Assembly: GCA_022821495.1 (NCBI GenBank)
Contig: JAJEDN010000078.1
Location: 30,612 to 94,611, forward strand
DNA: 64,000 nt
Reading direction: 5' to 3'
DNA from: Candidatus Poribacteria bacterium
GTDB taxonomy: Bacteria; Poribacteria; WGA-4E; WGA-3G
The translations under genes and the position numbers were made by a program. The notes beneath the pieces are model-generated. The model worked only from the letters and a program-made list of their open reading frames with translations. It was not told the DNA's origin and searched no databases. This document shows, piece after piece, positions 10,334 to 36,619 of this stretch (within the stretch, counting starts at the first letter, position 1; every line of letters begins with the position of its first letter).

Positions 10334-10555
10334 GGATTTAGGCTCAAAGTCCCCCTGATAAGGGGGATTTAGGGGGTTAGATTTTATAGCGTTCAGAAAA
10401 GTCCTCTGATGAGGTTCCACTTCAAAGTCCCCCTGATAAGGGGGATTTAGGGGGTTATCTTCAGGACTTAGGCCTCCGACTTCAAAGTCCCCCTGATAAG
10501 GGGGATTTAGGGGGTTAGATTTTATAGCGTTCAGAGATGCTATGGATTTCACAAG
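10299..10555. repeat. R1 repeat array: 4 copies of CAAAGTCCCCCTGATAAGGGGGATTTAGGGGGTTAG with interspersed attttatagcgttcaga units
   Basis: Copies at 10299-10333, 10345-10380, 10423-10458, 10483-10518. Spacing 46/78/60 bp is irregular and the spacers resemble each other. Confidence 0.85.
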
Positions 10556-28226: not shown

Positions 28227-28517
28227 GTGAAACAACTGTTTCTTATCTTATTCCTCGTGTCGGTATGTACGACTTTTGCCGCTGCCGATCTGTTAGAGGG
28301 GCTTGTTTTATACATGCCGCTTGACGAAGGTAACGGTAATAAGACCGAGTCGCCTCTCTTTATTCCAAGCCATCAGAATATTGCGCCCTATGGAACAATA
28401 CCAACCCATTTTAAAACGACTCGAAAAAACAGCGAAACACTATACCAATATCGCACCAGAGAACGGGCAGTTTCTCGCTATCCTGATCCGCTCTATTCGA
28501 GCACAAAACGTTCTTGA
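28227..28517 (+). pseudogene. Probable remnant of a secreted LamG/ConA-like protein gene: signal peptide plus GLVLYMPLDEGNGN then unrelated sequence
   Basis: MKQLFLILFLVSVCTTFAAADLLEGLVLYMPLDEGNGNKTE resembles the N-terminus of secreted LamG-jellyroll proteins. The rest of the 96-aa ORF has no features and overlaps the OMT gene in another frame. Confidence 0.35.
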
Positions 28518-28941
28518 AGTCGGAACGAGCAACGGTTATTCCGCAATTTGGATCGCTGCAGCCTTGAAGGAGACAGGCGGTAGACTCATTTCGTTGGAGT
28601 TTGATCCTGCACGCGCCGCTGAAGCACAAACACATCTTCAGGAAGTTGGATTAGACGACATCGTTGAAGTCCGTGTCGGAAATGCTCTCGACGAGATACC
28701 GAAATGTGATGCCACATTTGACCTTGTATTCCTTGACGCACAGAAAGACGAATACCGACGCTATCTGGAGTTGGTATTGCCGAACATCCGTCTGGGAGGT
28801 TTAATCGTTGCTGATGATACTGTAACGATGCGGGACGAAATGCCCGACTATATTGAATTTGTTTTTAACACGCCCATGCTAAACTCTGTTGATATTCCCT
28901 TGGACGATGGTATCATTTTGAGTTATAAAACTGGAGATTAG
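28390..28941 (+). CDS. Class I SAM-dependent O-methyltransferase (family 3, caffeoyl-CoA OMT-like)
   Basis: VLEVGTSNGYSAIWIA SAM motif I, LISLEFDP, FDLVFLDAQKDEY, GGLIVADD. Start placed at the ATG 28390 (ORF open from 28303). No obvious RBS. Confidence 0.7.
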   Translation: MEQYQPILKRLEKTAKHYTNIAPENGQFLAILIRSIRAQNVLEVGTSNGYSAIWIAAALKETGGRLISLEFDPARAAEAQTHLQEVGLDDIVEVRVGNALDEIPKCDATFDLVFLDAQKDEYRRYLELVLPNIRLGGLIVADDTVTMRDEMPDYIEFVFNTPMLNSVDIPLDDGIILSYKTGD

Positions 28942-29042: not shown

Positions 29043-30173
29043 ATGACGCAGCTCTGTCTACGCCATAATGCGATTAACCTCTCCCAAGGCACGCCAGCAT
29101 ACCAACCACCCCCTGAAGTCAAAGCTGCTGCAATTGAAGCAATCCAAGAGGGATATAATCAGTATAGCATCACGTGGGGGGCACCGTCGTTTCGCGAAGC
29201 AATCGCCCAGAAAATGACGACATTTAACGACATCCCTACAGACCCCAACAGAAACGTCACTGTAACCTGTGGTTCAACCGAAGGCATGCTCTCCGCACTC
29301 CTCGCGATTATCAACCCGGGCGACGAGATTATCATCTTTGAACCCTTTTATGAAAACTATGGACCCGATACGATCATCTCTGGCGCGAAACCTGTCTATG
29401 TCGCGTTACAAGAGACACCGGGGGCCGATGGCACTATCCACTTTACCTACGATACGACTGAACTCCGAGAGGCTTTCTCTGCCAACACAAAGGCGATTGT
29501 CATAAATACCCCGAACAACCCGCTCGGTAAGGTGTTTACGCACAATGAACTGCAAGAAATTGCCGATCTCTGTTGTGAATACGACTGCCTCGCAATCACG
29601 GATGAAATCTACGAGCACATGATCTACGATGAAAAATCGCATATCAGCATCGGCGCGTTACCGCAGATGCGGGATCGGACGATTACCGTGTCAGGGTTGA
29701 GCAAAGCCTATTCTATGACAGGATGGCGGCTCGGTTATGTTGTCGCACCGGAAACACTCACCAATGCGATCCGAAAAATGCACGACTTTCTCACAGTCGG
29801 CGCACCACATCCCTTGCAACGTGCTGGAGTTGTCGCACTTAATTTGCCATCAAGTTATCATAAGGCGTTGGTCGCGAAGTATGATAAGAATCGCAAGTTT
29901 CTTGTAAATAACCTCACAAAAGCCGGGTTCCATTGCCATGAGCCGGAGGGCGCGTATTACATCATGACAGACATCACCGATTTCGGATTTCCTGATGATA
30001 CCGCTTTTGCGCACTGGTTAGTAAAGGAGATTGGTGTAGGCGGTGTACCGGGATCCAGTTTCTACAGTCGCTCACAGCTCGGTAAGACAAAATTCAGATT
30101 TATGTTCAGCATGGCGGATGACATCCTCGCTGAAGCCAGTGAACGATTAATGCAAATCAAATCCAAGATTTAA
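29043..30173 (+). CDS. Class I/II PLP-dependent aminotransferase (aromatic/aspartate aminotransferase-like)
   Basis: AINLSQGTPAYQPP, PLP-lysine region LSKAYSMTGWRLGY. The conserved N-terminal LSEKSTRFSESVIRGM motif is encoded in-frame upstream of the first ATG (frame open from 28929), so a non-canonical start (e.g. ATT 28980 after gagg) is possible. Confidence 0.8.
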   Translation: MTQLCLRHNAINLSQGTPAYQPPPEVKAAAIEAIQEGYNQYSITWGAPSFREAIAQKMTTFNDIPTDPNRNVTVTCGSTEGMLSALLAIINPGDEIIIFEPFYENYGPDTIISGAKPVYVALQETPGADGTIHFTYDTTELREAFSANTKAIVINTPNNPLGKVFTHNELQEIADLCCEYDCLAITDEIYEHMIYDEKSHISIGALPQMRDRTITVSGLSKAYSMTGWRLGYVVAPETLTNAIRKMHDFLTVGAPHPLQRAGVVALNLPSSYHKALVAKYDKNRKFLVNNLTKAGFHCHEPEGAYYIMTDITDFGFPDDTAFAHWLVKEIGVGGVPGSSFYSRSQLGKTKFRFMFSMADDILAEASERLMQIKSKI

Positions 30174-30184
30174 CTGTAGGAAGG

Positions 30185-30200
30185 GTTTCTAACCCCGATG
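30185..30200. repeat. Degenerate copy of the GGGGTTT[GC]TAACCCC hairpin core, downstream of the aminotransferase gene
   Basis: ggaagggtttctaaccccg. Confidence 0.3.
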
Positions 30201-30210
30201 CTAAATTGGA

Positions 30211-30410
30211 TAGGACTTACGCCCGGTCTCTTAAAGTCCCCCTGATAAGGGGGATTTAGGGGGTTTCTTACATGCGATCTTAGGACTTACGCATGGTCTC
30301 TTAAAGTCCCCCGGATAAGGGGGATTTAGGGGGTTTCTTACATACGACGACTTACGCCCGGTCTCTTAAAGTCCCCCTGATAAGGGGGATTTAGGGGGTT
30401 TCTTACATGC
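30211..30410. repeat. R1 tandem array: 3 units (~66-70 bp) of taggacttacgcccggtctcttaaaGTCCCCCTGATAAGGGGGATTTAGGGGGtttcttacatgc
   Basis: Units at 30211-30280, 30281-30346, 30347-30410. The core is identical to the R1 copies at 10345 etc. Confidence 0.85.
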
Positions 30411-30443
30411 AACATTTTATTCCACAATACTGTCAAACTATTT

Positions 30444-30677
30444 ATGAGACGCGCTATTGGAGACACCAACATGGACATTTCCCTCGAAAACGAAACACTG
30501 AATATCTATAGAAGAGAAATTGAGACACTTATTCAGCGCGATGAGAAGTATAAAGACTTAGGTCCCGCTGAACTTGAGGCAATTGTGCGCGCCTTTGAAT
30601 TTACTTTAACAAACGGTCGTGAGCAAGTCAGAGCGCAAATGCTTTACGACCTCGTTCATGAGAAAAGGGACGGCTAA
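30444..30677 (+). CDS. Small hypothetical protein (77 aa, or 68 aa from the ATG at 30471), translationally coupled to the downstream ATPase
   Basis: The TAA stop overlaps the downstream ATG in TAATATG. No recognisable domain. Confidence 0.45.
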   Translation: MRRAIGDTNMDISLENETLNIYRREIETLIQRDEKYKDLGPAELEAIVRAFEFTLTNGREQVRAQMLYDLVHEKRDG

Positions 30678-30678
30678 T

Positions 30679-32553
30679 ATGCTGCTTGAGCAGATCCGCC
30701 TGAGGGATTTCGGCTGTTTCCAACAGCAAAATTTTGATCTTCATGACGGGATCAACCTCATTTTCGGTCCCAATTTCAGTGGAAAAAGCACGCTTGTCAA
30801 CGCCATCTTCTTTACACTCACTGGGAAACCGATCGTCCCCCGCGTAGATCCTTCTGCCATAAAAAACGCTAAAGCCTATACCGGTACTGCTGGACTCCAA
30901 TTTCTTGTAGATGACGAGCGTTATCAGCTCCACCGAGCCACAGGAAAACGGATCCAACTCCGCACTGAAAAGAACGCTACGTGGCAGGTACTTTTCGATG
31001 AAAAGCGTGTCAAAGTAACAGAGTCGCTGTTGCAAGAACGATTTGGCGTTATGCACGAGCAACTCGCCCTCACGACATTCCTCCGCGAAGGTGAGATTTT
31101 TGAATTTCTCGCGCGTCAATCTGCCACTCGACGTGATATTCTCCATACGCTCCTCGGTATTGATAGATTAATAGAGGTCCGACAACGGTTCATTGAAGCG
31201 CGGCGTATCGCTAAACGTGAACAGGGCAGATTACGCTCTCACCAGAACAGTCTCCGGTTCAATGCACAGAATGTAAACGAAGCCGAGATCTCGCGAATTG
31301 AAGCGAAGTTGAAAGACTTGGAAGCCGCTTACGGTGCCCAAACAGGTGATACAGCACTCATCGCAGAGTGGGTGCAGCACCAGAACCGCTTACAAAAACA
31401 GTTGACTTCCCTCACGCAACAACAAGATGACGCCTTAAGCGGTTTCAACGATATTGCACATCTACGAGAGATGATCGCTACAATCGAAACGGCGATTCAA
31501 GAAGCCGCTGGATTAGAAGGCAAACGCGAGAAACTCATACAACAGATCGGTCGTTTGGAGTCTGAAATCGAAGCATTGACGAAGGTCTGTACCACCCTCC
31601 AAACACTGCTTGAGAGCGGCGAACAGCACTGTCCAACCTGTTCCCAAGAAGTTGAACGAGAGGTGGTGCAAAAGATTGTTGACGAGAAAGCGGAAGAGAA
31701 ATCACAGCGATGCACCGAACTTGATACCCATAAACAGTCGTTAGAGACAGAAACGACTAATTTAAAAAATCGGCAAGCACTTGAACAACGTCTCCAGACG
31801 TTGCAAACACTCTCAACACAGTATCAGCAGCGCGCCCAAGACCTTGACAAAACGCAAACTGAACTCGACGCACTCGCATCTCGGTTAAGTGAGAGAGGCA
31901 TCCAACAGAACGAACAGGTGCCTTCGGATACGCTCGCGACCTTGGACAAACCGAAGTTAAAAGCCCAAATTGATAGCGAGCGTGAGCGACTTGGCAAACT
32001 CAAGCAGGAAGAAGCCGTCCGTCTGGATAGACTCGGCGCGCTCCAACGCGTAAACAGAGACGCAGCGAAAGTTGAAAAGACACTCCTAAGTATAGAACTC
32101 GCCTGTGCTGGGATTGACAGAACCATTGAAGCACTCCAACGGCAAATCCTCAAGCCCGCTGAAGGGGAACTGCATCACTGGCTCGACAAGATGCAACTCT
32201 TTTCTACTTCTCGCGGGAGCGGGGCACAAACGCGCGTTGACTTACAACGCGAACACCTGCTCCCTTCCTTGAACATAGATGGTGCAGATCGGAGCCTGAT
32301 GTTACTCAGCGGTAGTGAAAAAATGTTCTTATATCTCTGCTTCAAAGTTGCCCTCGCCAAAGTTTTAGGCAACCCCGGCTTCTTTGTATTCGATGACCCG
32401 ACGCTCCATTTAGATGGCGAGCGAAAGGCGTTGATGGTAGATTTTATCCGTGAAGTCGCCGAAGAACACCAAGTCATCGTAACAAGTTATGATGAGGATG
32501 TGCGCGCGGGGCTCGAAAGCGCGCATCTCATTGAAATGACCAGAGAAGCATAG
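30679..32553 (+). CDS. Rad50/SbcC-like SMC-family ATPase with central CxxC zinc hook (624 aa)
   Basis: Walker A GPNFSGKSTLVNAIFFTLTG. Long coiled coil with HCPTCSQEV hook near the middle. ABC signature LSGSEKMFLYL and Walker B FFVFDDPTLHLD plus D-loop at the C-terminus. aaaaggga RBS. Confidence 0.8.
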   Translation: MLLEQIRLRDFGCFQQQNFDLHDGINLIFGPNFSGKSTLVNAIFFTLTGKPIVPRVDPSAIKNAKAYTGTAGLQFLVDDERYQLHRATGKRIQLRTEKNATWQVLFDEKRVKVTESLLQERFGVMHEQLALTTFLREGEIFEFLARQSATRRDILHTLLGIDRLIEVRQRFIEARRIAKREQGRLRSHQNSLRFNAQNVNEAEISRIEAKLKDLEAAYGAQTGDTALIAEWVQHQNRLQKQLTSLTQQQDDALSGFNDIAHLREMIATIETAIQEAAGLEGKREKLIQQIGRLESEIEALTKVCTTLQTLLESGEQHCPTCSQEVEREVVQKIVDEKAEEKSQRCTELDTHKQSLETETTNLKNRQALEQRLQTLQTLSTQYQQRAQDLDKTQTELDALASRLSERGIQQNEQVPSDTLATLDKPKLKAQIDSERERLGKLKQEEAVRLDRLGALQRVNRDAAKVEKTLLSIELACAGIDRTIEALQRQILKPAEGELHHWLDKMQLFSTSRGSGAQTRVDLQREHLLPSLNIDGADRSLMLLSGSEKMFLYLCFKVALAKVLGNPGFFVFDDPTLHLDGERKALMVDFIREVAEEHQVIVTSYDEDVRAGLESAHLIEMTREA

Positions 32554-32663
32554 AGAGATGGGAAGTTGACTTTCTGTGTCTTAATAGGACACGTTATTGG
32601 GCGCGGCAGGATGGGTCTGCTTATTCTTCACAACGCCCGTAAGTATGTGGTTGAAACGAAAAT

Positions 32664-32876
32664 TTGGAAGGCGATCTGCTTTACGAAGCCGGTAAAGAGC
32701 AACTCGCGAAGTATCTCAGCATAGAAAATGCGAACGAAGGCTATTACGTAGTCTTCGATCATCACAAAAATCCCGAACCTCAAGTAGAAACACAAACCTT
32801 ACAGGATTTAACGATTCGGAGCTACGTCATCCCCGTCCTACAAGAACGTCCTTCCACTTCTGCTCTTCAAGCTTAA
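32664..32876 (+). CDS. Orphan 70-aa ORF (TTG start), unknown. Possibly a gene fragment
   Basis: Preceded by an in-frame stop. No RBS or domain seen. Reported with low confidence. Confidence 0.2.
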   Translation: MEGDLLYEAGKEQLAKYLSIENANEGYYVVFDHHKNPEPQVETQTLQDLTIRSYVIPVLQERPSTSALQA

Positions 32877-32905
32877 ACACAACCTAAAAATCCAAAAGGA
32901 GAAAA

Positions 32906-35428
32906 ATGAAAACACTATATCTTACGATTACACTATTCATTTTTTTTACACTCGTTTTTTTACCATGCAGTTTCGCACAAGAACCAACATTTCTTGATCA
33001 TGGAGGTGGTGTGCGAGCGGTGGAATTTTCTCCTGTAGATGCATCACTTGTTGTGAGTGCTGGTGAGAGCAGTATTATCAAACTATGGAATCTGCAGACC
33101 AATACCGTGAAAACACTCGTCGGGCATACTGGTAGGGTCAATTCCGTTGCCTTTTCTCCTGATGGAGAGTTGCTTGCAAGTGTGAGCGATGATAAGACAA
33201 TCAAACTGTGGAATGTTCATGATCAACAAAACGTCATAACACTTCAAGATGAAACGAGGTTTCGCTCTGTTGACTTTTCTGCCAATGGACAACTCCTTGC
33301 CACAGGTGGTGGGATGCATGTAAAATTATGGGATGTTCCTAATCGGGTGGAGATTGCGCCACTTCAACACGACAAAGATGTAAGGGCAGTAGTTTTTTCA
33401 CCTGATGGTCAATTCCTTGCCGCTGGAGATGGTTCCGGAGATGGTCCCGGCACTGTGAAAGTCTGGAATGTTCAGGAACGGCAAGTTATCACTACACTAA
33501 GAGGGGATCCGAAAAATATCAAGACTGTCACATTTTCGCAGGATAACCGCTACTTGGCGAGTTCTGGGTGGGATGGACAACTCAAAGTGTGGAATGTCTC
33601 TGATTGGACGCTCTTTCGCACGATTCCGCATACAGGTTACTATGATATTTCATTTGCACCTGATGGGAAAATGCTCGTCAGTACAAATAACGGGTACGTG
33701 AGCCTTTGGTGGGTTGAGGATGGATCCAGGATTGTTCGGTTGAATGGACCTACCAATTGGATTCATCCTGTTGATTTTTCGCATGACGGCACCTCGCTTG
33801 CTGTTGGTGGTGAAGATGGGTTAGTGCGGATATGGCGTATTGATACGGGTAATGGTAATCAAAAGGGCGCTGTCCGTATTTTACATGTCAGCAATTATTT
33901 GGCACAGCTCCCCGATGTGAATACGGAGAACGGCATCCATATTCCTGATCCTGTTTCACCGCCACGTATTGTTAGCGACTATTTTCAACTTGATCCGTTT
34001 TATGAACAGTGGATTGATGTAGAAGGGTTGCCTGTCTTGGCATCGGTGAAGGTTAATCCGTATGCGCTAAAGGAAGCAGCATGGCTTATCAGGAAGATGG
34101 TCGGACATCGACCAGAAATACTGCAAGCAATGGCAGGGAAAAAGGCGAAATTATCTGTAATCGCACATAACGAGATTATAACAGAAATACCTGAGTATCG
34201 CAACGATGCACCTCCTGATTTTCTTATTTCCCGAGAACGTGGATGGGGCGGTAGTCGACAAGCAACAGTCAGTTCTTCTGAAGAAAACATCTTGAGTTAT
34301 GAAGGACCTCATAGCAGAAACTATAATGTGCTGATTCATGAATTTGCACATGGTATACACAGGTTTGGAGCGGATGCTGTCAATCCTTCGTTTGATGACG
34401 ATCTTCGCATTGTATATGAAGATGCAATGAGAAAAGGTTTATGGAAGGGAACTTATGCTTCTTCAGACAGAAAAGAATATTGGGCGGAAGGGACGCAAGC
34501 ATGGTTTAATCCAAAAGGGGATGGCAGCTTCAGGCATTTTGGCGATACGCGAAAAGCATTGAAAAATTATGATCCAGGACTTGCTGCGTTGCTTGCCGAA
34601 ATCTATGGCGATAACGCATGGCGGTATACGTCACCGCTCACACGAACCGATCAACCGCATCTTCAAGGTTATAATCCGCAAGAGTCACCTGTCTTTGAAG
34701 GGTGGAATGAGTTAGAAGCCTTATATCACCAACTCCGTGATCCCAACAGCGATGGGGGCGGTGAGTGGGTTAACTTAAAATCCTTTAATCCGAATCAGCT
34801 TTCAAGGTTGGTTGAGTCAAGTGTCGGTGGCAACAGGACTACAATGATTTTCGTCAATCTCAGTCAAGATGATGTTTTGACATACCGGGTTTCTTCTAAT
34901 GATGCGGAGGCACTTTGGACAAGAATTTATCCAGGACGTGCTCGCTGGACACATACTTCAGCGAATCAAATATGGCTTATTAAGGACACGCGTGGGAAAA
35001 ATATCGCGGTATTCAAAGCGAGTGAAAAAACAGGACGCGCCGTAATTGGCGTTAAAGATGGGCAGGTATTGCCTGTTACCCTGTCCCGTTTCCGTGCCGA
35101 ACTCACCGATGCAGGTGTTATTCTTAGATGGATAACCGAATCAGAATTGAACAACGCGGGCTTCAATATCCTCCGCAGTGAAGCAAAGAATGGTGAGTTC
35201 AAGGTCGTTAATCCCCAACTCATCCAAGGCGCAGGCACAACAAGTGAACGGCACACTTACACATGGAAAGATACCACTGCCAAACCCAATGTCGTCTATT
35301 ACTATCGGATAGAGGACATCTCACATGCCGGTATTTGCAAGCAGTTAGCAACCGTCCGACTGAGAGGATATGTCTCCGCAGCGGGTAAACTTACGACGAA
35401 GTGGGGCGATTTGAAAAGGCAAGAGTAA
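32906..35428 (+). CDS. Secreted WD40 beta-propeller fused to a putative HExxH zinc-metallopeptidase-like domain and a C-terminal beta-rich domain
   Basis: Signal peptide LYLTITLFIFFTLVFLPCSFA. Seven WD40-like blades (VKLWNV, WD motifs). NVLIHEFAHGIH HExxH motif. C-terminal GTTSE...YYYRIEDISHAG domain. Confidence 0.75.
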   Translation: MKTLYLTITLFIFFTLVFLPCSFAQEPTFLDHGGGVRAVEFSPVDASLVVSAGESSIIKLWNLQTNTVKTLVGHTGRVNSVAFSPDGELLASVSDDKTIKLWNVHDQQNVITLQDETRFRSVDFSANGQLLATGGGMHVKLWDVPNRVEIAPLQHDKDVRAVVFSPDGQFLAAGDGSGDGPGTVKVWNVQERQVITTLRGDPKNIKTVTFSQDNRYLASSGWDGQLKVWNVSDWTLFRTIPHTGYYDISFAPDGKMLVSTNNGYVSLWWVEDGSRIVRLNGPTNWIHPVDFSHDGTSLAVGGEDGLVRIWRIDTGNGNQKGAVRILHVSNYLAQLPDVNTENGIHIPDPVSPPRIVSDYFQLDPFYEQWIDVEGLPVLASVKVNPYALKEAAWLIRKMVGHRPEILQAMAGKKAKLSVIAHNEIITEIPEYRNDAPPDFLISRERGWGGSRQATVSSSEENILSYEGPHSRNYNVLIHEFAHGIHRFGADAVNPSFDDDLRIVYEDAMRKGLWKGTYASSDRKEYWAEGTQAWFNPKGDGSFRHFGDTRKALKNYDPGLAALLAEIYGDNAWRYTSPLTRTDQPHLQGYNPQESPVFEGWNELEALYHQLRDPNSDGGGEWVNLKSFNPNQLSRLVESSVGGNRTTMIFVNLSQDDVLTYRVSSNDAEALWTRIYPGRARWTHTSANQIWLIKDTRGKNIAVFKASEKTGRAVIGVKDGQVLPVTLSRFRAELTDAGVILRWITESELNNAGFNILRSEAKNGEFKVVNPQLIQGAGTTSERHTYTWKDTTAKPNVVYYYRIEDISHAGICKQLATVRLRGYVSAAGKLTTKWGDLKRQE
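35363..35428. repeat. Left copy of a ~66-bp direct repeat flanking the Rpn gene (3' end of the WD40 gene)
   Basis: gagaggatatgtctccgcagcgggtaaacttacgacgaagtggggcgatttgaaaaggcaagagtaa vs 36414-36480, ~85% identical. Confidence 0.8.
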
Positions 35429-35532
35429 GTATCGCCAACCAAGCATTTTCTGTGCCTCTCCGTTTTCTTTAAAATTGGGTATAGACTCAAAAAATCTTGA
35501 CTTTTCTCCATAAAGGCAGATATAATACTTAC

Positions 35533-36408
35533 ATGCCATACTACGATGAAATCTTCAAGCATGTTACCGGGGAGTTCCCGCATGCGTTGGCAGTGTTAGC
35601 ACTCAAAGCACCAGAGGTGGAAGTCGGAGATCGTCTGGCGACAGAACACACCACGGTTCGGATACACCACAGCGATATGACGTTTCATATCCGATTGCCC
35701 GACGAGGAAGCGATCCTACATATAGAGGCACAAACCGACGATAGCACCTATAAACCGATGTCGCTACGAATGCTGGCATATTCGAGTTTCCTATCTCTTG
35801 AGCATGAGAAAAACGTCTATTCAACGGTGTTGTATTTCCGCCCCCCGGCGGGACAAAACGACCCCGGTTTCTATAGGTATGGCAACGAGCAACGTGGTGG
35901 CGGGTGGTTTCAGTATAATGTCGTCCGGATATATGAGTTGGAGGGTGAAGCGTTTTTGGATCCTAAAGCCGTTGGTTTACTGCCATTCACAGCTTTGATG
36001 AAACATCCGCCGGACATGACACCTCAAGCCTGGATTGAGAAGTGTATAGAGACGACCCAGGCAACCGATGTTGACAGAGAGATGCGGGCAACGCTTTTAT
36101 TTGCGCTTTCGCTTTTCGGAAGTTTAGCACATCCGTCTGAGTTTTTTCAGGACCCTATATTGGAGGGAATCATGCAAGAATCTCCTTTTTACGAACGCGT
36201 GATCCAGCGCGGCATAGAACAAGGGGCACGCCAAATGAGTATTGAAAGCACCTTGGCTACTCTTAACCAGCGCTTTCCAAACGCCGATGTCAATGCCCTC
36301 AAGCCGATCCTTGAAGCTGTTGACGATCTCAACAGGCTCCGGGAGTTGAACCTAAACGCTTCCGTAGCAGAAAGTTTCAACGTTTTCCGAGAAGACTTAG
36401 ACGCGTAA
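35533..36408 (+). mobile_element. Rpn-family (YhgA-like, PD-(D/E)XK) recombination-promoting nuclease / putative transposase gene
   Basis: N-terminal DEIFKHVTGEFPHALAVLAL, core HIEAQTDD...RMLAY, C-terminal SPFYERVIQRGIEQGARQ half-repeat typical of the family. ATG at 35533 (ORF open from the TTG at 35497). Flanked by a 66-bp direct repeat. Confidence 0.7.
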
Positions 36409-36413
36409 TCTAT

Positions 36414-36480
36414 GAGAGGTTATGTGTCCATAGCTGGTAAACTTACGACGAAGTGGGGCGATTTGAAACTGCAGGAGTAA
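36414..36480. repeat. Right copy of the direct repeat. Encodes an alternative WD40-protein tail (RGYVSIAGKLTTKWGDLKLQE-stop)
   Basis: gagaggttatgtgtccatagctggtaaacttacgacgaagtggggcgatttgaaactgcaggagtaa. Confidence 0.8.
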
Positions 36481-36546
36481 TGGGAGTGTTTCATTATTCA
36501 TGGTGGAAACTTCGTATCGTCGAAAATTCAGTTGCCGGAAACGCTG

Positions 36547-36590
36547 CATTGTAGCATAGGCTGTTAGCCTGTGCCTCCGTGGGCATAGGA
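36547..36590. repeat. R5 dispersed element, copy 2
   Basis: gcattgtagcataggctgttagcctgtgcctccgtgggcatagg. See 11725-11760. Confidence 0.5.
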
Positions 36591-36619
36591 AACCGTTGGT
36601 CTCCTGTGCCTCTAATTAC

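What the first reader, a model, noticed from the sequence alone, without database searches (positions are those of the whole stretch)
30444..32553. Solitary Rad50/SbcC-like zinc-hook ATPase translationally coupled to a 77-aa ORF, with no Mre11/SbcD partner nearby
The 624-aa protein has the N-terminal Walker A, a long coiled coil with a central CPTC hook, and the C-terminal ABC signature, Walker B and D-loop of SbcC/Rad50, but is about half the usual SbcC length. The upstream 77-aa ORF ends with TAA overlapping the ATG (TAATATG). No nuclease gene is adjacent. Flanking DNA is an R1 repeat array on one side and an orphan ORF plus a WD40 gene on the other. SMC-like ATPases without their canonical partners occur in several defence systems (Lamassu, Septu, Wadjet-like). 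This small-ORF+hook-ATPase pair is not one I can place.
Basis: partly seen in the sequence, partly recalled or inferred. Interest (0 to 1): 0.55.

Follow-up and report, generated by a model that had tools for sequence, protein, structure and literature searches.

The report
Mini-Rad50 ATPase with conserved small partner
A Poribacteria genome carries a half-length Rad50-like zinc-hook ATPase that is always encoded just after a 68-residue helical protein instead of an Mre11 nuclease. This two-gene unit recurs in several bacterial lineages and belongs to no described family, so it is probably an uncharacterised DNA-sensing complex.

Summary

**What is there**
- The ATPase (30679-32553, 624 aa) has Walker A, a CPTC zinc hook, an LSGSEK signature, Walker B and a D-loop.
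- The upstream gene is real but is 68 aa (start 30471), not 77.
- Its TAA and the ATPase ATG are one base apart (TAA-T-ATG). They do not overlap.

**How widely the pair is conserved**
- A small-protein relative lies directly upstream of the ATPase in 32 of 35 related loci, usually with an ATGA overlap. These come from Poribacteria, Desulfobacterota and unnamed metagenomic lineages.
- The small protein is under strong purifying selection (dN/dS 0.01-0.16).
- It matches no Pfam, NCBIfam, PADLOC or PDB entry.

**Where the ATPase fits**
- It scores about equally, and below every curated cut-off, against Rad50, archaeal ASRP and Lamassu LmuB models.
- Three catalytic residues are non-canonical: Q-loop Glu, Walker B Asp-Asp, and no H-loop His.

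**Context**
- No Mre11/SbcD or LmuA gene is adjacent in any locus.
- In Poribacteria the pair sits at a syntenic core position and evolves like its housekeeping neighbours.
- In one sister clade it is fused into an operon with a RecQ-family helicase carrying PsyrTA-like or PDC-M45-like modules.

**Verdict:** a new variant of the Rad50/SMC-like kind. It is most likely an ATP-gated DNA sensor or tether with a small adaptor subunit. Genome maintenance is favoured over defence for this locus, but defence is not excluded.

The parts
30471..30677 (+). Gene for a 68-aa, three-helix, acidic protein, the small partner. An in-frame ATG at 30444 would give the 77-aa reading.
   Evidence: Most listed homologues are 68 aa. 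GGAG lies 9 nt upstream of 30471. dN/dS is 0.01-0.16. A relative was found upstream of the ATPase in 32 of 35 loci, HMM E 1e-32 to 5e-4 in 31 and by tblastn in L025. AF2 gives helices 3-23, 32-48 and 50-67 at pLDDT 74. No known family matches.
30675..30681 (+). Gene junction TAA-T-ATG, a 1-nt spacer, with AAGGGA 8-9 nt upstream of the ATG.
   Evidence: Direct reading. Relatives have a 4-nt ATGA overlap or a 0-2 nt gap in 15 of 19 loci.
30679..32553 (+). Gene for a 624-aa short Rad50-like zinc-hook ABC ATPase.
   Evidence: Pfam SMC_N and AAA_23. Family profile against PDB: archaeal Rad50 heads score best at 165 bits, and the Rad50 hook 1l8d also matches. AF2 model. Foldseek top hit is Rad50 7zr1.
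30766..30792 (+). Walker A, GPNFSGKST (Lys36).
   Evidence: Lys is invariant in 82 of 82 relatives of about 600 aa.
31078..31098 (+). Q-loop position, FLREGEI. Glu137 replaces the canonical Gln.
   Evidence: Aligned to Rad50 'IKQGEI' and 'IRQGQI'. Glu in 71 and Gln in 11 of 82 relatives.
31627..31647 (+). Zinc hook, HCPTCSQ (Cys318, Cys321).
   Evidence: CxxC is invariant in 82 of 82 relatives. It sits at the apex of the predicted coiled coil.
32305..32322 (+). ABC signature motif, LSGSEK.
32380..32415 (+). Walker B plus D-loop, FFVFDDPTLHLD. Asp573 occupies the position of the catalytic Glu.
   Evidence: Aligned to Rad50 'LILDEPTVYLD'. The position after Walker B is Asp in groups A and C, Asn in group B and Glu in the Asgard cluster.
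32470..32496 (+). H-loop position, QVIVTSYDE. Tyr604 replaces the canonical His.
   Evidence: Aligned to Rad50 'QVILVSHDEE'. Across relatives the counts are Asn 32, Phe 19, His 11 and Tyr 9.
32566..32876 (+). Context, not part of the module: a frameshifted 3' remnant of an AAA_35/DUF8371 gene. It marks a variable insertion slot downstream of the pair.
   Evidence: tblastn of the L001 535-aa protein gives 88-89% identity in two frames. The slot is empty in L003 and holds different genes in L001, L009 and the window.

Best explanation
The two genes encode a two-subunit, Mre11-less, Rad50-type complex.

**Proposed mechanism**
- The 624-aa subunit dimerises in two ways: through its CPTC zinc hook, and through its ABC heads when ATP is bound. 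This forms a short clamp or tether, with coiled-coil arms of roughly 20 nm, that binds DNA ends or unusual DNA structures.
- The Q-loop Gln, the Walker B Glu and the H-loop His are all replaced, while Walker A, the signature motif and the D-loop are kept. It is therefore probably a slow ATPase that acts as an ATP-bound switch rather than a motor.
- The 68-aa acidic three-helix protein is made in stoichiometric amounts by translational coupling. It probably binds the ATPase, at the heads or the base of the coiled coil. That is the role of the Mre11/SbcD C-terminal domain on Rad50/SbcC and of LmuC on LmuB, both of which are also encoded immediately upstream of their ATPase.
- Output goes to partner enzymes rather than a built-in nuclease. 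In the sister clade that partner is a RecQ-family helicase encoded in cis.

**Likely role:** in Poribacteria, chromosome maintenance (recognition, tethering or processing of DNA breaks or structures).

**Shown:** the gene pair, its conservation, the motifs, the predicted fold and the contexts.

**Inferred:** the physical complex, DNA binding, slow hydrolysis and the biological role.
For: **Fold and relatedness**
- Sequence and fold are Rad50-like.
- The hook and Walker A are invariant, while the catalytic positions are replaced.

**The pair behaves as a unit**
- A small-ORF relative was found upstream in 32 of 35 loci. Start and stop overlap or are separated by at most 2 nt in 15 of 19 loci.
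- The small protein is under purifying selection and co-diverges with the ATPase (r = 0.94; r = 0.73 for pairs below 50% identity).
- The pair moved together to a different genomic site in the divergent Poribacteria locus L004.

**Core-gene behaviour**
- Position is syntenic in the window, L001, L003 and L009.
- ATPase identity between the window and L001/L003 is 79-80%, against 63-96% for eleven neighbouring genes, including Mfd at 83%.
- Neighbours are housekeeping genes in L004, L015 and L038-L040.
- No relative was found on plasmids, phages or viral contigs.

**Link to DNA metabolism**
- In group B the ATPase stop overlaps the start of a RecQ-family helicase in L013, L018, L024, L025 and L027.
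- DinG-like, DprA-like and MutL genes lie nearby.

**Precedent:** the SbcD C-terminal domain lies before SbcC and LmuC lies before LmuB (PMC12663957).
Against: - No experiment and no complex prediction was possible, so the subunit interaction is inferred.
- The small protein has no detectable sequence or fold similarity to the Mre11/SbcD C-terminal domain or to LmuC.
- The RecQ partner in group B carries PsyrT/ShosT-like PRTase or PDC-M45A-like DuOB domains. It is followed by PsyrA/ShosA-like or PDC-M45C-like genes. Those are known or candidate toxin-antitoxin or defence modules, so that clade may be immune rather than housekeeping.
- The slot immediately downstream in Poribacteria is variable, as seen near defence loci.
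- Whether Poribacteria also carry canonical SbcCD or RecQ elsewhere could not be checked.
Confidence: 0.45

Rival explanations
1. The pair is the sensor core of a Lamassu-like or otherwise SMC-based immune system, an LmuC-like adaptor plus an LmuB-like ATPase. Its effector is encoded in trans, has been lost, or is supplied by the variable gene downstream. It would detect foreign DNA ends or replication intermediates and trigger a toxic response.
For: - The best PADLOC hit is LmuB PDLC03859: 120 bits, full length, residues 3-608 on model positions 5-588 of 611.
- The Walker B hhhhDD with a single CxxC matches what is reported for long LmuB. Effector-less Lamassu clades are also reported (PMC12663957).
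- A small gene directly before the ATPase mirrors the LmuC-LmuB order.
- In group B the pair is operonic with PsyrT-like RecQ-PRTase (483-531 bits) plus PsyrA/ShosA-like DprA (153-161 bits). Alternatively it is operonic with RecQ-DuOB (PDC-M45A, 214 bits) plus DUF488 (PDC-M45C, 228 bits). PsyrTA is a validated defence system.
- A variable slot holding an AAA_35/DUF8371 gene or its remnant lies next to the pair in Poribacteria.
Against: - No LmuA-like effector was found in any of the 35 loci.
- The small protein matches no LmuC model.
- All family members, including Asgard ones, score about the same against the LmuB, ASRP and Rad50 models, so the LmuB hit is generic.
- The family profile finds archaeal Rad50 first in the PDB. 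No chain named Lamassu or LmuB appears among the best 60, although such structures are in the PDB copy.
- In Poribacteria the pair is syntenic, vertically inherited and evolves at core-gene rate.
- In clade C it sits among housekeeping genes.
- No relative was found on plasmids, phages or viral contigs.
- The RecQ core gives high scores to the PsyrT and DpdF models regardless of role. The match covers only model positions 5-407 of 689.
Confidence: 0.28
2. It is the bacterial counterpart of the archaeal ASRP proteins (coalescin ClsN, Sph1/2). It would be a zinc-hook SMC-related protein that organises or compacts the chromosome, or serves a structural role, rather than repairing it. The small protein would act as a loader or regulator.
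For: - The full-length match to NCBIfam ASRP NF045487 covers residues 11-606 on model positions 2-593 of 593 at 113 bits. Close relatives reach 127-150 bits.
- Size (about 600 aa), the short coiled coil and the zinc hook match ASRP as described (PMC9389158).
- The Q-loop Glu and the missing H-loop His are shared with the cluster that contains the Asgard sequences.
- Core, syntenic conservation suits a chromosome-architecture role.
Against: - The score is far below the ASRP cut-off of 300 bits, and the Asgard relative tested (P0272) is also below it.
- ASRPs were reported as essentially archaea-specific, with no conserved neighbour.
- The Asgard locus has no detectable homologue of the small protein (hhalign probability 2.5%).
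- The group B linkage to RecQ, DinG-like and DprA-like genes points to DNA processing rather than compaction.
Confidence: 0.17
3. It is an inactive or decaying relic of an SbcCD operon: a truncated SbcC plus a leftover fragment of SbcD, with no present function.
For: - The catalytic residues are non-canonical.
- A pseudogene remnant lies next door.
- The small gene occupies the position of the SbcD C-terminus.
Against: - Both genes are intact and under strong purifying selection (small gene dN/dS 0.01-0.16; ATPase 79-95% identity across many Poribacteria clusters).
- The replaced residues are themselves conserved within clades.
- The module persists across Poribacteria, Desulfobacterota and unnamed metagenomic lineages.
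Confidence: 0.03

Closest known systems
Rad50-Mre11 / SbcC-SbcD DNA-repair complex
   Same: - ABC head, antiparallel coiled coil and a single CxxC zinc hook.
- It is the best sequence match (archaeal Rad50 heads, 165 bits; Rad50 hook 1l8d) and the best fold match (7zr1).
- A partner gene lies immediately upstream and is translationally coupled.
   Different: - It is about 0.6 of the length of SbcC.
- It is far below the curated cut-offs (NF003034 114 bits against 700; TIGR00618 40 bits against 478.5).
- No Mre11/SbcD nuclease is present in any locus. A 68-aa helical protein with no detectable similarity takes that position.
- Q-loop Gln is replaced by Glu, Walker B Glu by Asp, and H-loop His by Tyr or Asn.
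Lamassu (ABC-3C / DdmABC): LmuB with LmuC and LmuA
   Same: - A Rad50-derived ATPase of about 600 aa, with a small protein encoded directly before it.
- The Walker B DD and single CxxC match what is reported for long LmuB.
- Full-length hit to PADLOC LmuB PDLC03859 at 120 bits.
   Different: - No LmuA effector is present in any locus.
- The small protein (60-69 aa across the related loci) matches no LmuC model.
- Long LmuB is about 800 aa.
- The locus is core and syntenic rather than a defence island, and no relative was found on mobile elements.
Archaea-specific SMC-related proteins (ASRP: ClsN/coalescin, Sph1/2)
   Same: - The same size and architecture, including the hook.
- End-to-end alignment to the ASRP model.
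- The Q-loop Glu and the lack of an H-loop His are shared with the Asgard-containing cluster.
   Different: - It is bacterial.
- The score is 113 bits against a cut-off of 300.
- Walker B is DD or DN rather than DE.
- It has a conserved small partner, whereas ASRPs were reported to have no consistent neighbour.
PsyrTA (RqlHI) and ShosTA toxin-antitoxin / defence pairs; PADLOC candidate system PDC-M45
   Same: - In sister clade B, the genes after the ATPase are a RecQ-PRTase and a DprA-like protein. These hit PsyrT at 483-531 bits and PsyrA/ShosA at 153-161 bits.
- In the other sub-variant they are RecQ-DuOB and DUF488, which hit PDC-M45A and PDC-M45C.
   Different: - None of these genes is in the window or near the pair in clades A and C.
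- Described PsyrTA is a two-gene system without an SMC-like component.

Membership tests
Rad50/SbcC (canonical) | Score at or above the curated family cut-off. | tested here: not met
   NF003034 114.7 bits against 700. TIGR00618 40.1 against 478.5. NF041751 25 against 920.
Rad50/SbcC (canonical) | ABC head plus coiled coil with a CxxC zinc hook. | tested here: met
   Motifs and alignment to the Rad50 heads and to the hook 1l8d. AF2 model.
Rad50/SbcC (canonical) | Canonical catalytic set: Q-loop Gln, Walker B Asp-Glu, H-loop His. | tested here: not met
   Glu137, Asp572-Asp573 and Tyr604, aligned against Rad50 Gln, Asp-Glu and His.
Rad50/SbcC (canonical) | Co-encoded Mre11/SbcD phosphoesterase. 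| tested here: not met
   None adjacent in the window or in the bacterial loci, and none in the 64-kb window by tblastn. The rest of the genome could not be searched.
Lamassu LmuB | Similarity to LmuB profiles. | tested here: inconclusive
   PDLC03859 scores 120 bits over the full length. The ASRP and Rad50 models score the same, and Asgard relatives also hit it. No chain named Lamassu or LmuB is among the best 60 PDB sequence hits.
Lamassu LmuB | Adjacent LmuA effector (effector domain plus C-terminal domain). | tested here: not met
   Absent in all 35 loci examined.
Lamassu LmuB | LmuC middle component encoded before LmuB. | tested here: inconclusive
   A small gene occupies that position. 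It has no hit to any PADLOC LmuC model and no fold match. LmuC families are very diverse.
Lamassu LmuB | Patchy, defence-island or mobile-element distribution. | tested here: not met
   The locus is syntenic and core in Poribacteria. Neighbours elsewhere are housekeeping genes. No plasmid, phage or viral-contig relatives.
ASRP (NF045487) | Score at or above the cut-off of 300 bits. | tested here: not met
   113.5 bits for the window protein and 59-150 bits for relatives.
ASRP (NF045487) | About 600 aa, short coiled coil, zinc hook. | tested here: met
   Description in PMC9389158.
ASRP (NF045487) | Archaeal lineage, monophyletic with ClsN and Sph. | not testable with these tools
   No ClsN or Sph sequences and no tree-building tool beyond a rough NJ tree. 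That tree puts clades A-C apart from the Asgard-containing cluster.
SMC / MukB / Wadjet JetC | Hinge dimerisation domain with kleisin and KITE or HAWK partners. | tested here: not met
   A hook replaces the hinge. SMC models score 22-38 bits against cut-offs of 567-729. No kleisin-like neighbour was found.
PsyrTA / PDC-M45 (as an extended system) | RecQ-PRTase plus DprA-like genes, or DuOB plus DUF488 genes, next to the pair. | tested here: not met
   Present only in clade B loci and absent from the window.

The most novel reading that the evidence does not exclude
The small protein plus short hook ATPase would be a previously unrecognised, ancient bacterial branch of the Rad50/ASRP lineage, with two defining changes:
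- A 7-kDa adaptor has replaced Mre11.
- The ATPase has become a slow ATP switch.

The same sensor core would then serve two purposes. It would be housekeeping in Poribacteria and Desulfobacterota. In a sister clade it would act as the upstream DNA sensor that controls a RecQ-type toxin (PsyrT-like) and its DprA-like antitoxin.

That would give a living intermediate between DNA repair and SMC-based immunity, and a missing trigger mechanism for PsyrTA-type systems.
Probability: 0.25. Interest if true: 0.72.

Novelty: new variant of a known kind. Interest (0 to 1): 0.55.

Why it matters
Rad50-type zinc-hook ATPases are understood almost entirely through their Mre11/SbcD nuclease partner or, in Lamassu, through an effector.

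This family keeps the hook and the ATP-binding site but differs in three ways:
- It has lost the nuclease.
- It has replaced three catalytic residues.
- It has acquired a dedicated 60-70-residue partner, conserved from Poribacteria to Desulfobacterota.

That points to a minimal DNA-sensing or tethering unit that signals through other proteins. It also extends ASRP-like proteins, described as archaea-specific, towards bacteria. It offers a natural comparison between a solitary, apparently housekeeping form and a form wired to RecQ/PsyrTA-like modules. Such a comparison bears on how repair machines become immune sensors. The small-protein family itself has no annotation anywhere and would be a new family entry.

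Tried and rejected
**Searches that were limited or failed**
- The single genome-contig scan was saturated by the Walker A pattern. It gave only two true relatives (L003, L004) plus three irrelevant N-terminal matches (L005-L007). A census across Poribacteria species, and a search for sbcD or recQ elsewhere in those genomes, was therefore not possible.
- The third homologous-protein search, with distant seeds, returned mostly Poribacteria and generic SbcC.
- The ABC-ATPase classification paper (NAR 2020) is not held. Whether it lists this clade is unknown.
- Taxon names for the remaining clusters could not be obtained.

**Searches that found nothing**
- Foldseek on the small-protein model gave nothing below E = 3.9. 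A PDB sequence search with its profile gave nothing below E = 0.15.
- Rfam found nothing above noise in 29900-33000. Promoter and terminator scans were no better than shuffles.
- The Asgard upstream 85-aa ORF and the 127-aa retropepsin-like ORF before P0258 are not related to the small protein.

**Leads considered and set aside**
- PADLOC mad3 (69.6 bits on the ATPase) and mad2 (61.9 bits on the O-methyltransferase at 28390-28941). I take these as generic P-loop and SAM-domain similarity, because the genes are separated by an aminotransferase and no other mad genes were seen.
- The Halobacterium plasmid hits turned out to be a metallophosphoesterase plus a 398-aa (1197-nt CDS) ATPase pair, not Sph or ASRP.
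- A helix-turn-helix DNA-binding role for the small protein is unlikely. Its pI is 4.4-6.3 in 18 of 19 members, its helices are 17-21 residues long, and it has no HTH family hit.
Full report
**Observation**

The region holds two co-directional genes. The larger (30679-32553, 624 aa from the ATG) carries these motifs:
- Walker A, GPNFSGKST
- a central CPTC
- an LSGSEK signature
- Walker B plus D-loop, FFVFDDPTLHLD

AlphaFold2, run on a 28-sequence alignment, gives mean pLDDT 79. It shows an ABC head, an antiparallel coiled coil (residues 161-313 up, 327-505 down) and the CxxC at the apex.

The upstream ORF is real, but its likely start is the ATG at 30471, giving 68 aa. A GGAG lies 9 nt upstream. 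Most listed homologues are 68 aa, and the longer database versions have unrelated N-terminal extensions. Its TAA (30675-30677) is followed by one base and then the ATG, so there is no overlap.

The organism is a member of Candidatus Poribacteria, judging by the names attached to near-identical proteins.

**Surroundings**

- Upstream lie FIST, SGL, O-methyltransferase and aminotransferase genes. An array of three 67-nt hairpin repeats follows at 30211-30412. The same repeat also forms a second three-copy array at 10346-10514.
- Downstream, the 'orphan ORF' is the frameshifted 3' end of an AAA_35/DUF8371 gene. That gene is intact after the ATPase in L001/L002.
- This downstream slot is variable among Poribacteria. 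It is empty in L003, holds the AAA_35 gene in L001, and holds a 201-aa gene plus a WD40 gene in L009. The window has the remnant, a WD40 gene and a 303-aa gene.
- The pair and the outer flanks are syntenic, including the 475-aa gene, the histidine phosphatase and Mfd.
- Between the window and L001/L003 the ATPase is 79-80% identical and the small protein 87-88%. Eleven neighbouring genes range from 63% to 96%.
- In a divergent Poribacteria genome (L004, ATPase 46% identical) the pair sits at a different site, among tRNA-dihydrouridine synthase, RNase PH, EF-P and AccBC-like ORFs. It is still a pair, with a 2-nt gap.

**The family**

An exhaustive representative search found 156 clusters at E < 1e-10. 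About 80 of the best 150 are proteins of about 600 aa that align end to end. I distinguish four groups:

| Group | Members | Signature | Residue after Walker B Asp |
|---|---|---|---|
| A | Poribacteria plus P0244 (39%) and P0247 (32%) | LSGSEK | Asp (DD) |
| B | P0251-P0260 (26-31%) | LSGSEK | Asn (DN) |
| C | P0259, P0263-P0287 (about 24-29%); includes Desulfococcaceae and Thermodesulfobacteriota | MSKSER | Asp (DD) |
| D | More distant cluster containing Asgard archaea | LSGAEK | Glu (DE) |

In a rough neighbour-joining tree of head domains, A, B and C cluster together. They stand apart from the Asgard-containing cluster and from a set of 650-700-aa proteins with fully canonical motifs.

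Every tested member scores similarly against NCBIfam ASRP (59-150 bits, cut-off 300), the Rad50 models (57-135 bits, cut-offs 700-1087) and PADLOC LmuB PDLC03859 (75-123 bits). None of these models discriminates between the groups.

Against the PDB, the family profile finds archaeal Rad50 heads first (165 bits) and also the Rad50 hook crystal structure. Foldseek ranks Rad50 first, followed by YydD, SMC and LmuB chains, at similar TM-scores.

**Catalytic site**

The HMMER alignments to Rad50 show three replacements:
- The Q-loop Gln is replaced by an invariant Glu.
- The Walker B Glu is replaced by Asp in this protein.
- The H-loop His is replaced by Tyr here and by Asn in most relatives.

Among 82 relatives the counts are as follows:
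- Walker A Lys and both hook cysteines: 100%.
- Q-loop: Glu 71, Gln 11.
- Position after Walker B: Glu 40, Asp 33, Asn 7.
- H-loop: Asn 32, Phe 19, His 11, Tyr 9.

ATP binding and head engagement are therefore probably retained. Fast hydrolysis is unlikely. That second point is an inference from established ABC-ATPase mechanism. A published survey reports Walker B hhhhDD with a single CxxC for long Lamassu LmuB.

**The small partner**

I built an HMM from eight small ORFs and searched all ORFs of all fetched loci.
- It hits the ORF immediately upstream of the ATPase in 31 of 35 loci that carry a family ATPase with upstream DNA. E-values run from 1e-32 to 5e-4, and loci not used for the model are included.
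- A 32nd locus (L025) has the homologous sequence with an in-frame TAG.
- The exceptions are P0258 (L010/L011, where a retropepsin-like gene lies upstream) and the Asgard locus L017.
- In 19 non-redundant pairs, 10 have a 4-nt ATGA overlap and 5 have a 1-nt overlap or a 0-2 nt gap. Two overlap by 26 nt as annotated, and L008 and L012 have gaps of 38 and 146 nt.

Properties of the protein:
- It is under strong purifying selection (dN/dS 0.01-0.16).
- Its divergence tracks that of the ATPase (r = 0.94; r = 0.73 for pairs below 50% identity).
- It is mildly acidic, pI 4.4-6.3 in 18 of 19 members.
- It is predicted to form three helices at pLDDT 74.
- It matches nothing in Pfam, NCBIfam, PADLOC, PDB sequences or PDB folds.

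**Neighbour genes across clades**

- Clade C pairs (L015, L038, L039, L040) stand alone among unrelated housekeeping genes such as RelA/SpoT, ribosomal protein L28, V-type ATPase, BipA and RecJ.
- Clade B pairs are followed by a RecQ-family helicase in seven loci. In five of them the ATPase stop overlaps the helicase start.
- Clade B has two sub-variants:
  1. RecQ core plus a C-terminal PRTase, followed by a DprA-like gene. PADLOC scores these as PsyrT (483-531 bits over the helicase core), ShosT (about 38 bits on the PRTase) and PsyrA/ShosA (153-161 bits).
  2. A full RecQ (RQC, HRDC) plus a DuOB domain (PDC-M45A, 214 bits), followed by DUF488 (PDC-M45C, 228 bits). A DinG-like helicase lies upstream.
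- PsyrTA/RqlHI is a toxin-antitoxin pair with validated anti-phage activity. Its toxin has a PRTase domain and its antitoxin is DprA-like.
- None of these genes occurs in the window.
- No family member was found on 72,556 plasmids, 50,697 phage records or in two pattern scans of IMG/VR contigs.

**Interpretation**

What is shown:
- A conserved, translationally coupled two-gene module.
- A Rad50-like hook ATPase with a modified catalytic site.
- A novel small partner.
- No nuclease or Lamassu effector in cis.
- Core-gene behaviour in Poribacteria.
- Physical operon linkage to RecQ-type genes in one sister clade.

What I infer: the two proteins form a complex. The small subunit would occupy the role that the SbcD/Mre11 C-terminal domain or LmuC plays for its ATPase, since both are also encoded just upstream. 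The complex would act as an ATP-gated DNA sensor or tether, with output through other enzymes.

For the Poribacteria locus I favour genome maintenance (0.45). The alternatives are a defence sensor (0.28) and an ASRP-like chromosome organiser (0.17). The clade B context is the main reason the defence reading stays alive. The RecQ/DprA/PRTase set can be read either as a break-processing and RecA-loading pathway or as PsyrTA.

**Comparison and novelty**

It works like a Rad50-family sensor, but it fails the membership tests for three families:
- Canonical Rad50/SbcC: cut-offs, catalytic residues and nuclease partner are all unmet.
- Lamassu: no LmuA, no recognisable LmuC, and not island-like.
- ASRP: the score cut-off is unmet and the organism is bacterial.

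I found no paper describing this pair in the searchable library.

I rate it a new variant of a known kind, with interest 0.55. It is a real, widespread, unannotated module with an unusual catalytic site and a suggestive link between repair and immunity. It belongs, however, to a very large and diverse superfamily in which uncharacterised clades are common.

Noticed in passing
window 30211-30412 and 10346-10514: Two arrays, each of three copies, of a hairpin-containing intergenic repeat of about 67 nt (core AAAGTCCCCCTGATAAGGGGGATTTAGGGGG). There are six core matches against zero expected by chance. The array before the small gene lengthens that intergenic region from about 190 nt in L001 to 297 nt here. 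No Rfam family matches, and folding is not better than shuffles (z = -1.5).
   Followed up: partly
window 32566-32876: The 'orphan ORF' is a frameshifted 3' remnant of an AAA_35/DUF8371 gene, which is 535 aa when intact in L001/L002. The conserved stretch GRGRMxLLILHxARKYVVETKIW looks like a D...ExK nuclease-type motif. This is my reading and was not tested.
   Followed up: partly
window 32554-36600; L001 11929-13536; L003 9902-9948; L009 12522-16459: The slot directly downstream of the ATPase is a variable insertion site among otherwise syntenic Poribacteria genomes. It is empty in L003, holds the AAA_35 gene in L001, and holds WD40 proteins plus unknown genes in L009 and the window.
   Followed up: partly
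L013 1749-7048; L018 5606-9941; L021 6417-11855; L024 3658-11142; L025 572-6284; L027 154-7269: Clade B operons join the small protein and the hook ATPase to a RecQ-family helicase. The helicase C-terminal domain co-varies with the next gene: PRTase with DprA-like (PsyrTA/ShosTA-like), or DuOB with DUF488 (PADLOC PDC-M45A/C). Some also have a DinG-like helicase upstream. This may be an unrecognised four- or five-gene system.
   Followed up: partly
L018 3262-5609 and 10419-11600; L022 473-2663; L028 791-2654; L029 3151-4677: Tandem runs of two to four paralogous genes sit immediately upstream of the small ORF in some clade B loci, with a MutL gene before them. They range from about 130 to 285 aa, most near 200 aa, and the one scanned matched Sigma70_r2. 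In L018 the last of them overlaps the small ORF start by 4 nt.
   Followed up: no
L025 572-769: The small-protein gene carries an in-frame TAG (CAG in the 94%-identical L026 copy). This could be a sequencing error or a natural nonsense mutation. These copies appear to start with TTG.
   Followed up: partly
L017 5784-9644 (Asgard archaeon): The Asgard relative is preceded by an unrelated 85-aa ORF. It is followed, after a 23-nt gap, by a 589-aa protein with a weak calcineurin-like phosphoesterase hit (E = 0.005). This may be a divergent Mre11-like partner.
   Followed up: no
window 28390-28941: The O-methyltransferase two genes upstream (Pfam Methyltransf_3 in the syntenic L001 gene) hits PADLOC mad2 at 61.9 bits, and the ATPase hits mad3 at 69.6 bits. 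I judged these generic domain similarities, not a MADS system.
   Followed up: partly
L041 (Halobacterium salinarum plasmid pHSAL2) 2015-4697: The weak plasmid hits to the ATPase N-terminus are a metallophosphoesterase plus a 398-aa AAA ATPase pair (1197-nt CDS). It is a coiled-coil-less, Mre11/Rad50-like pair next to IS elements and a MazF toxin.
   Followed up: no
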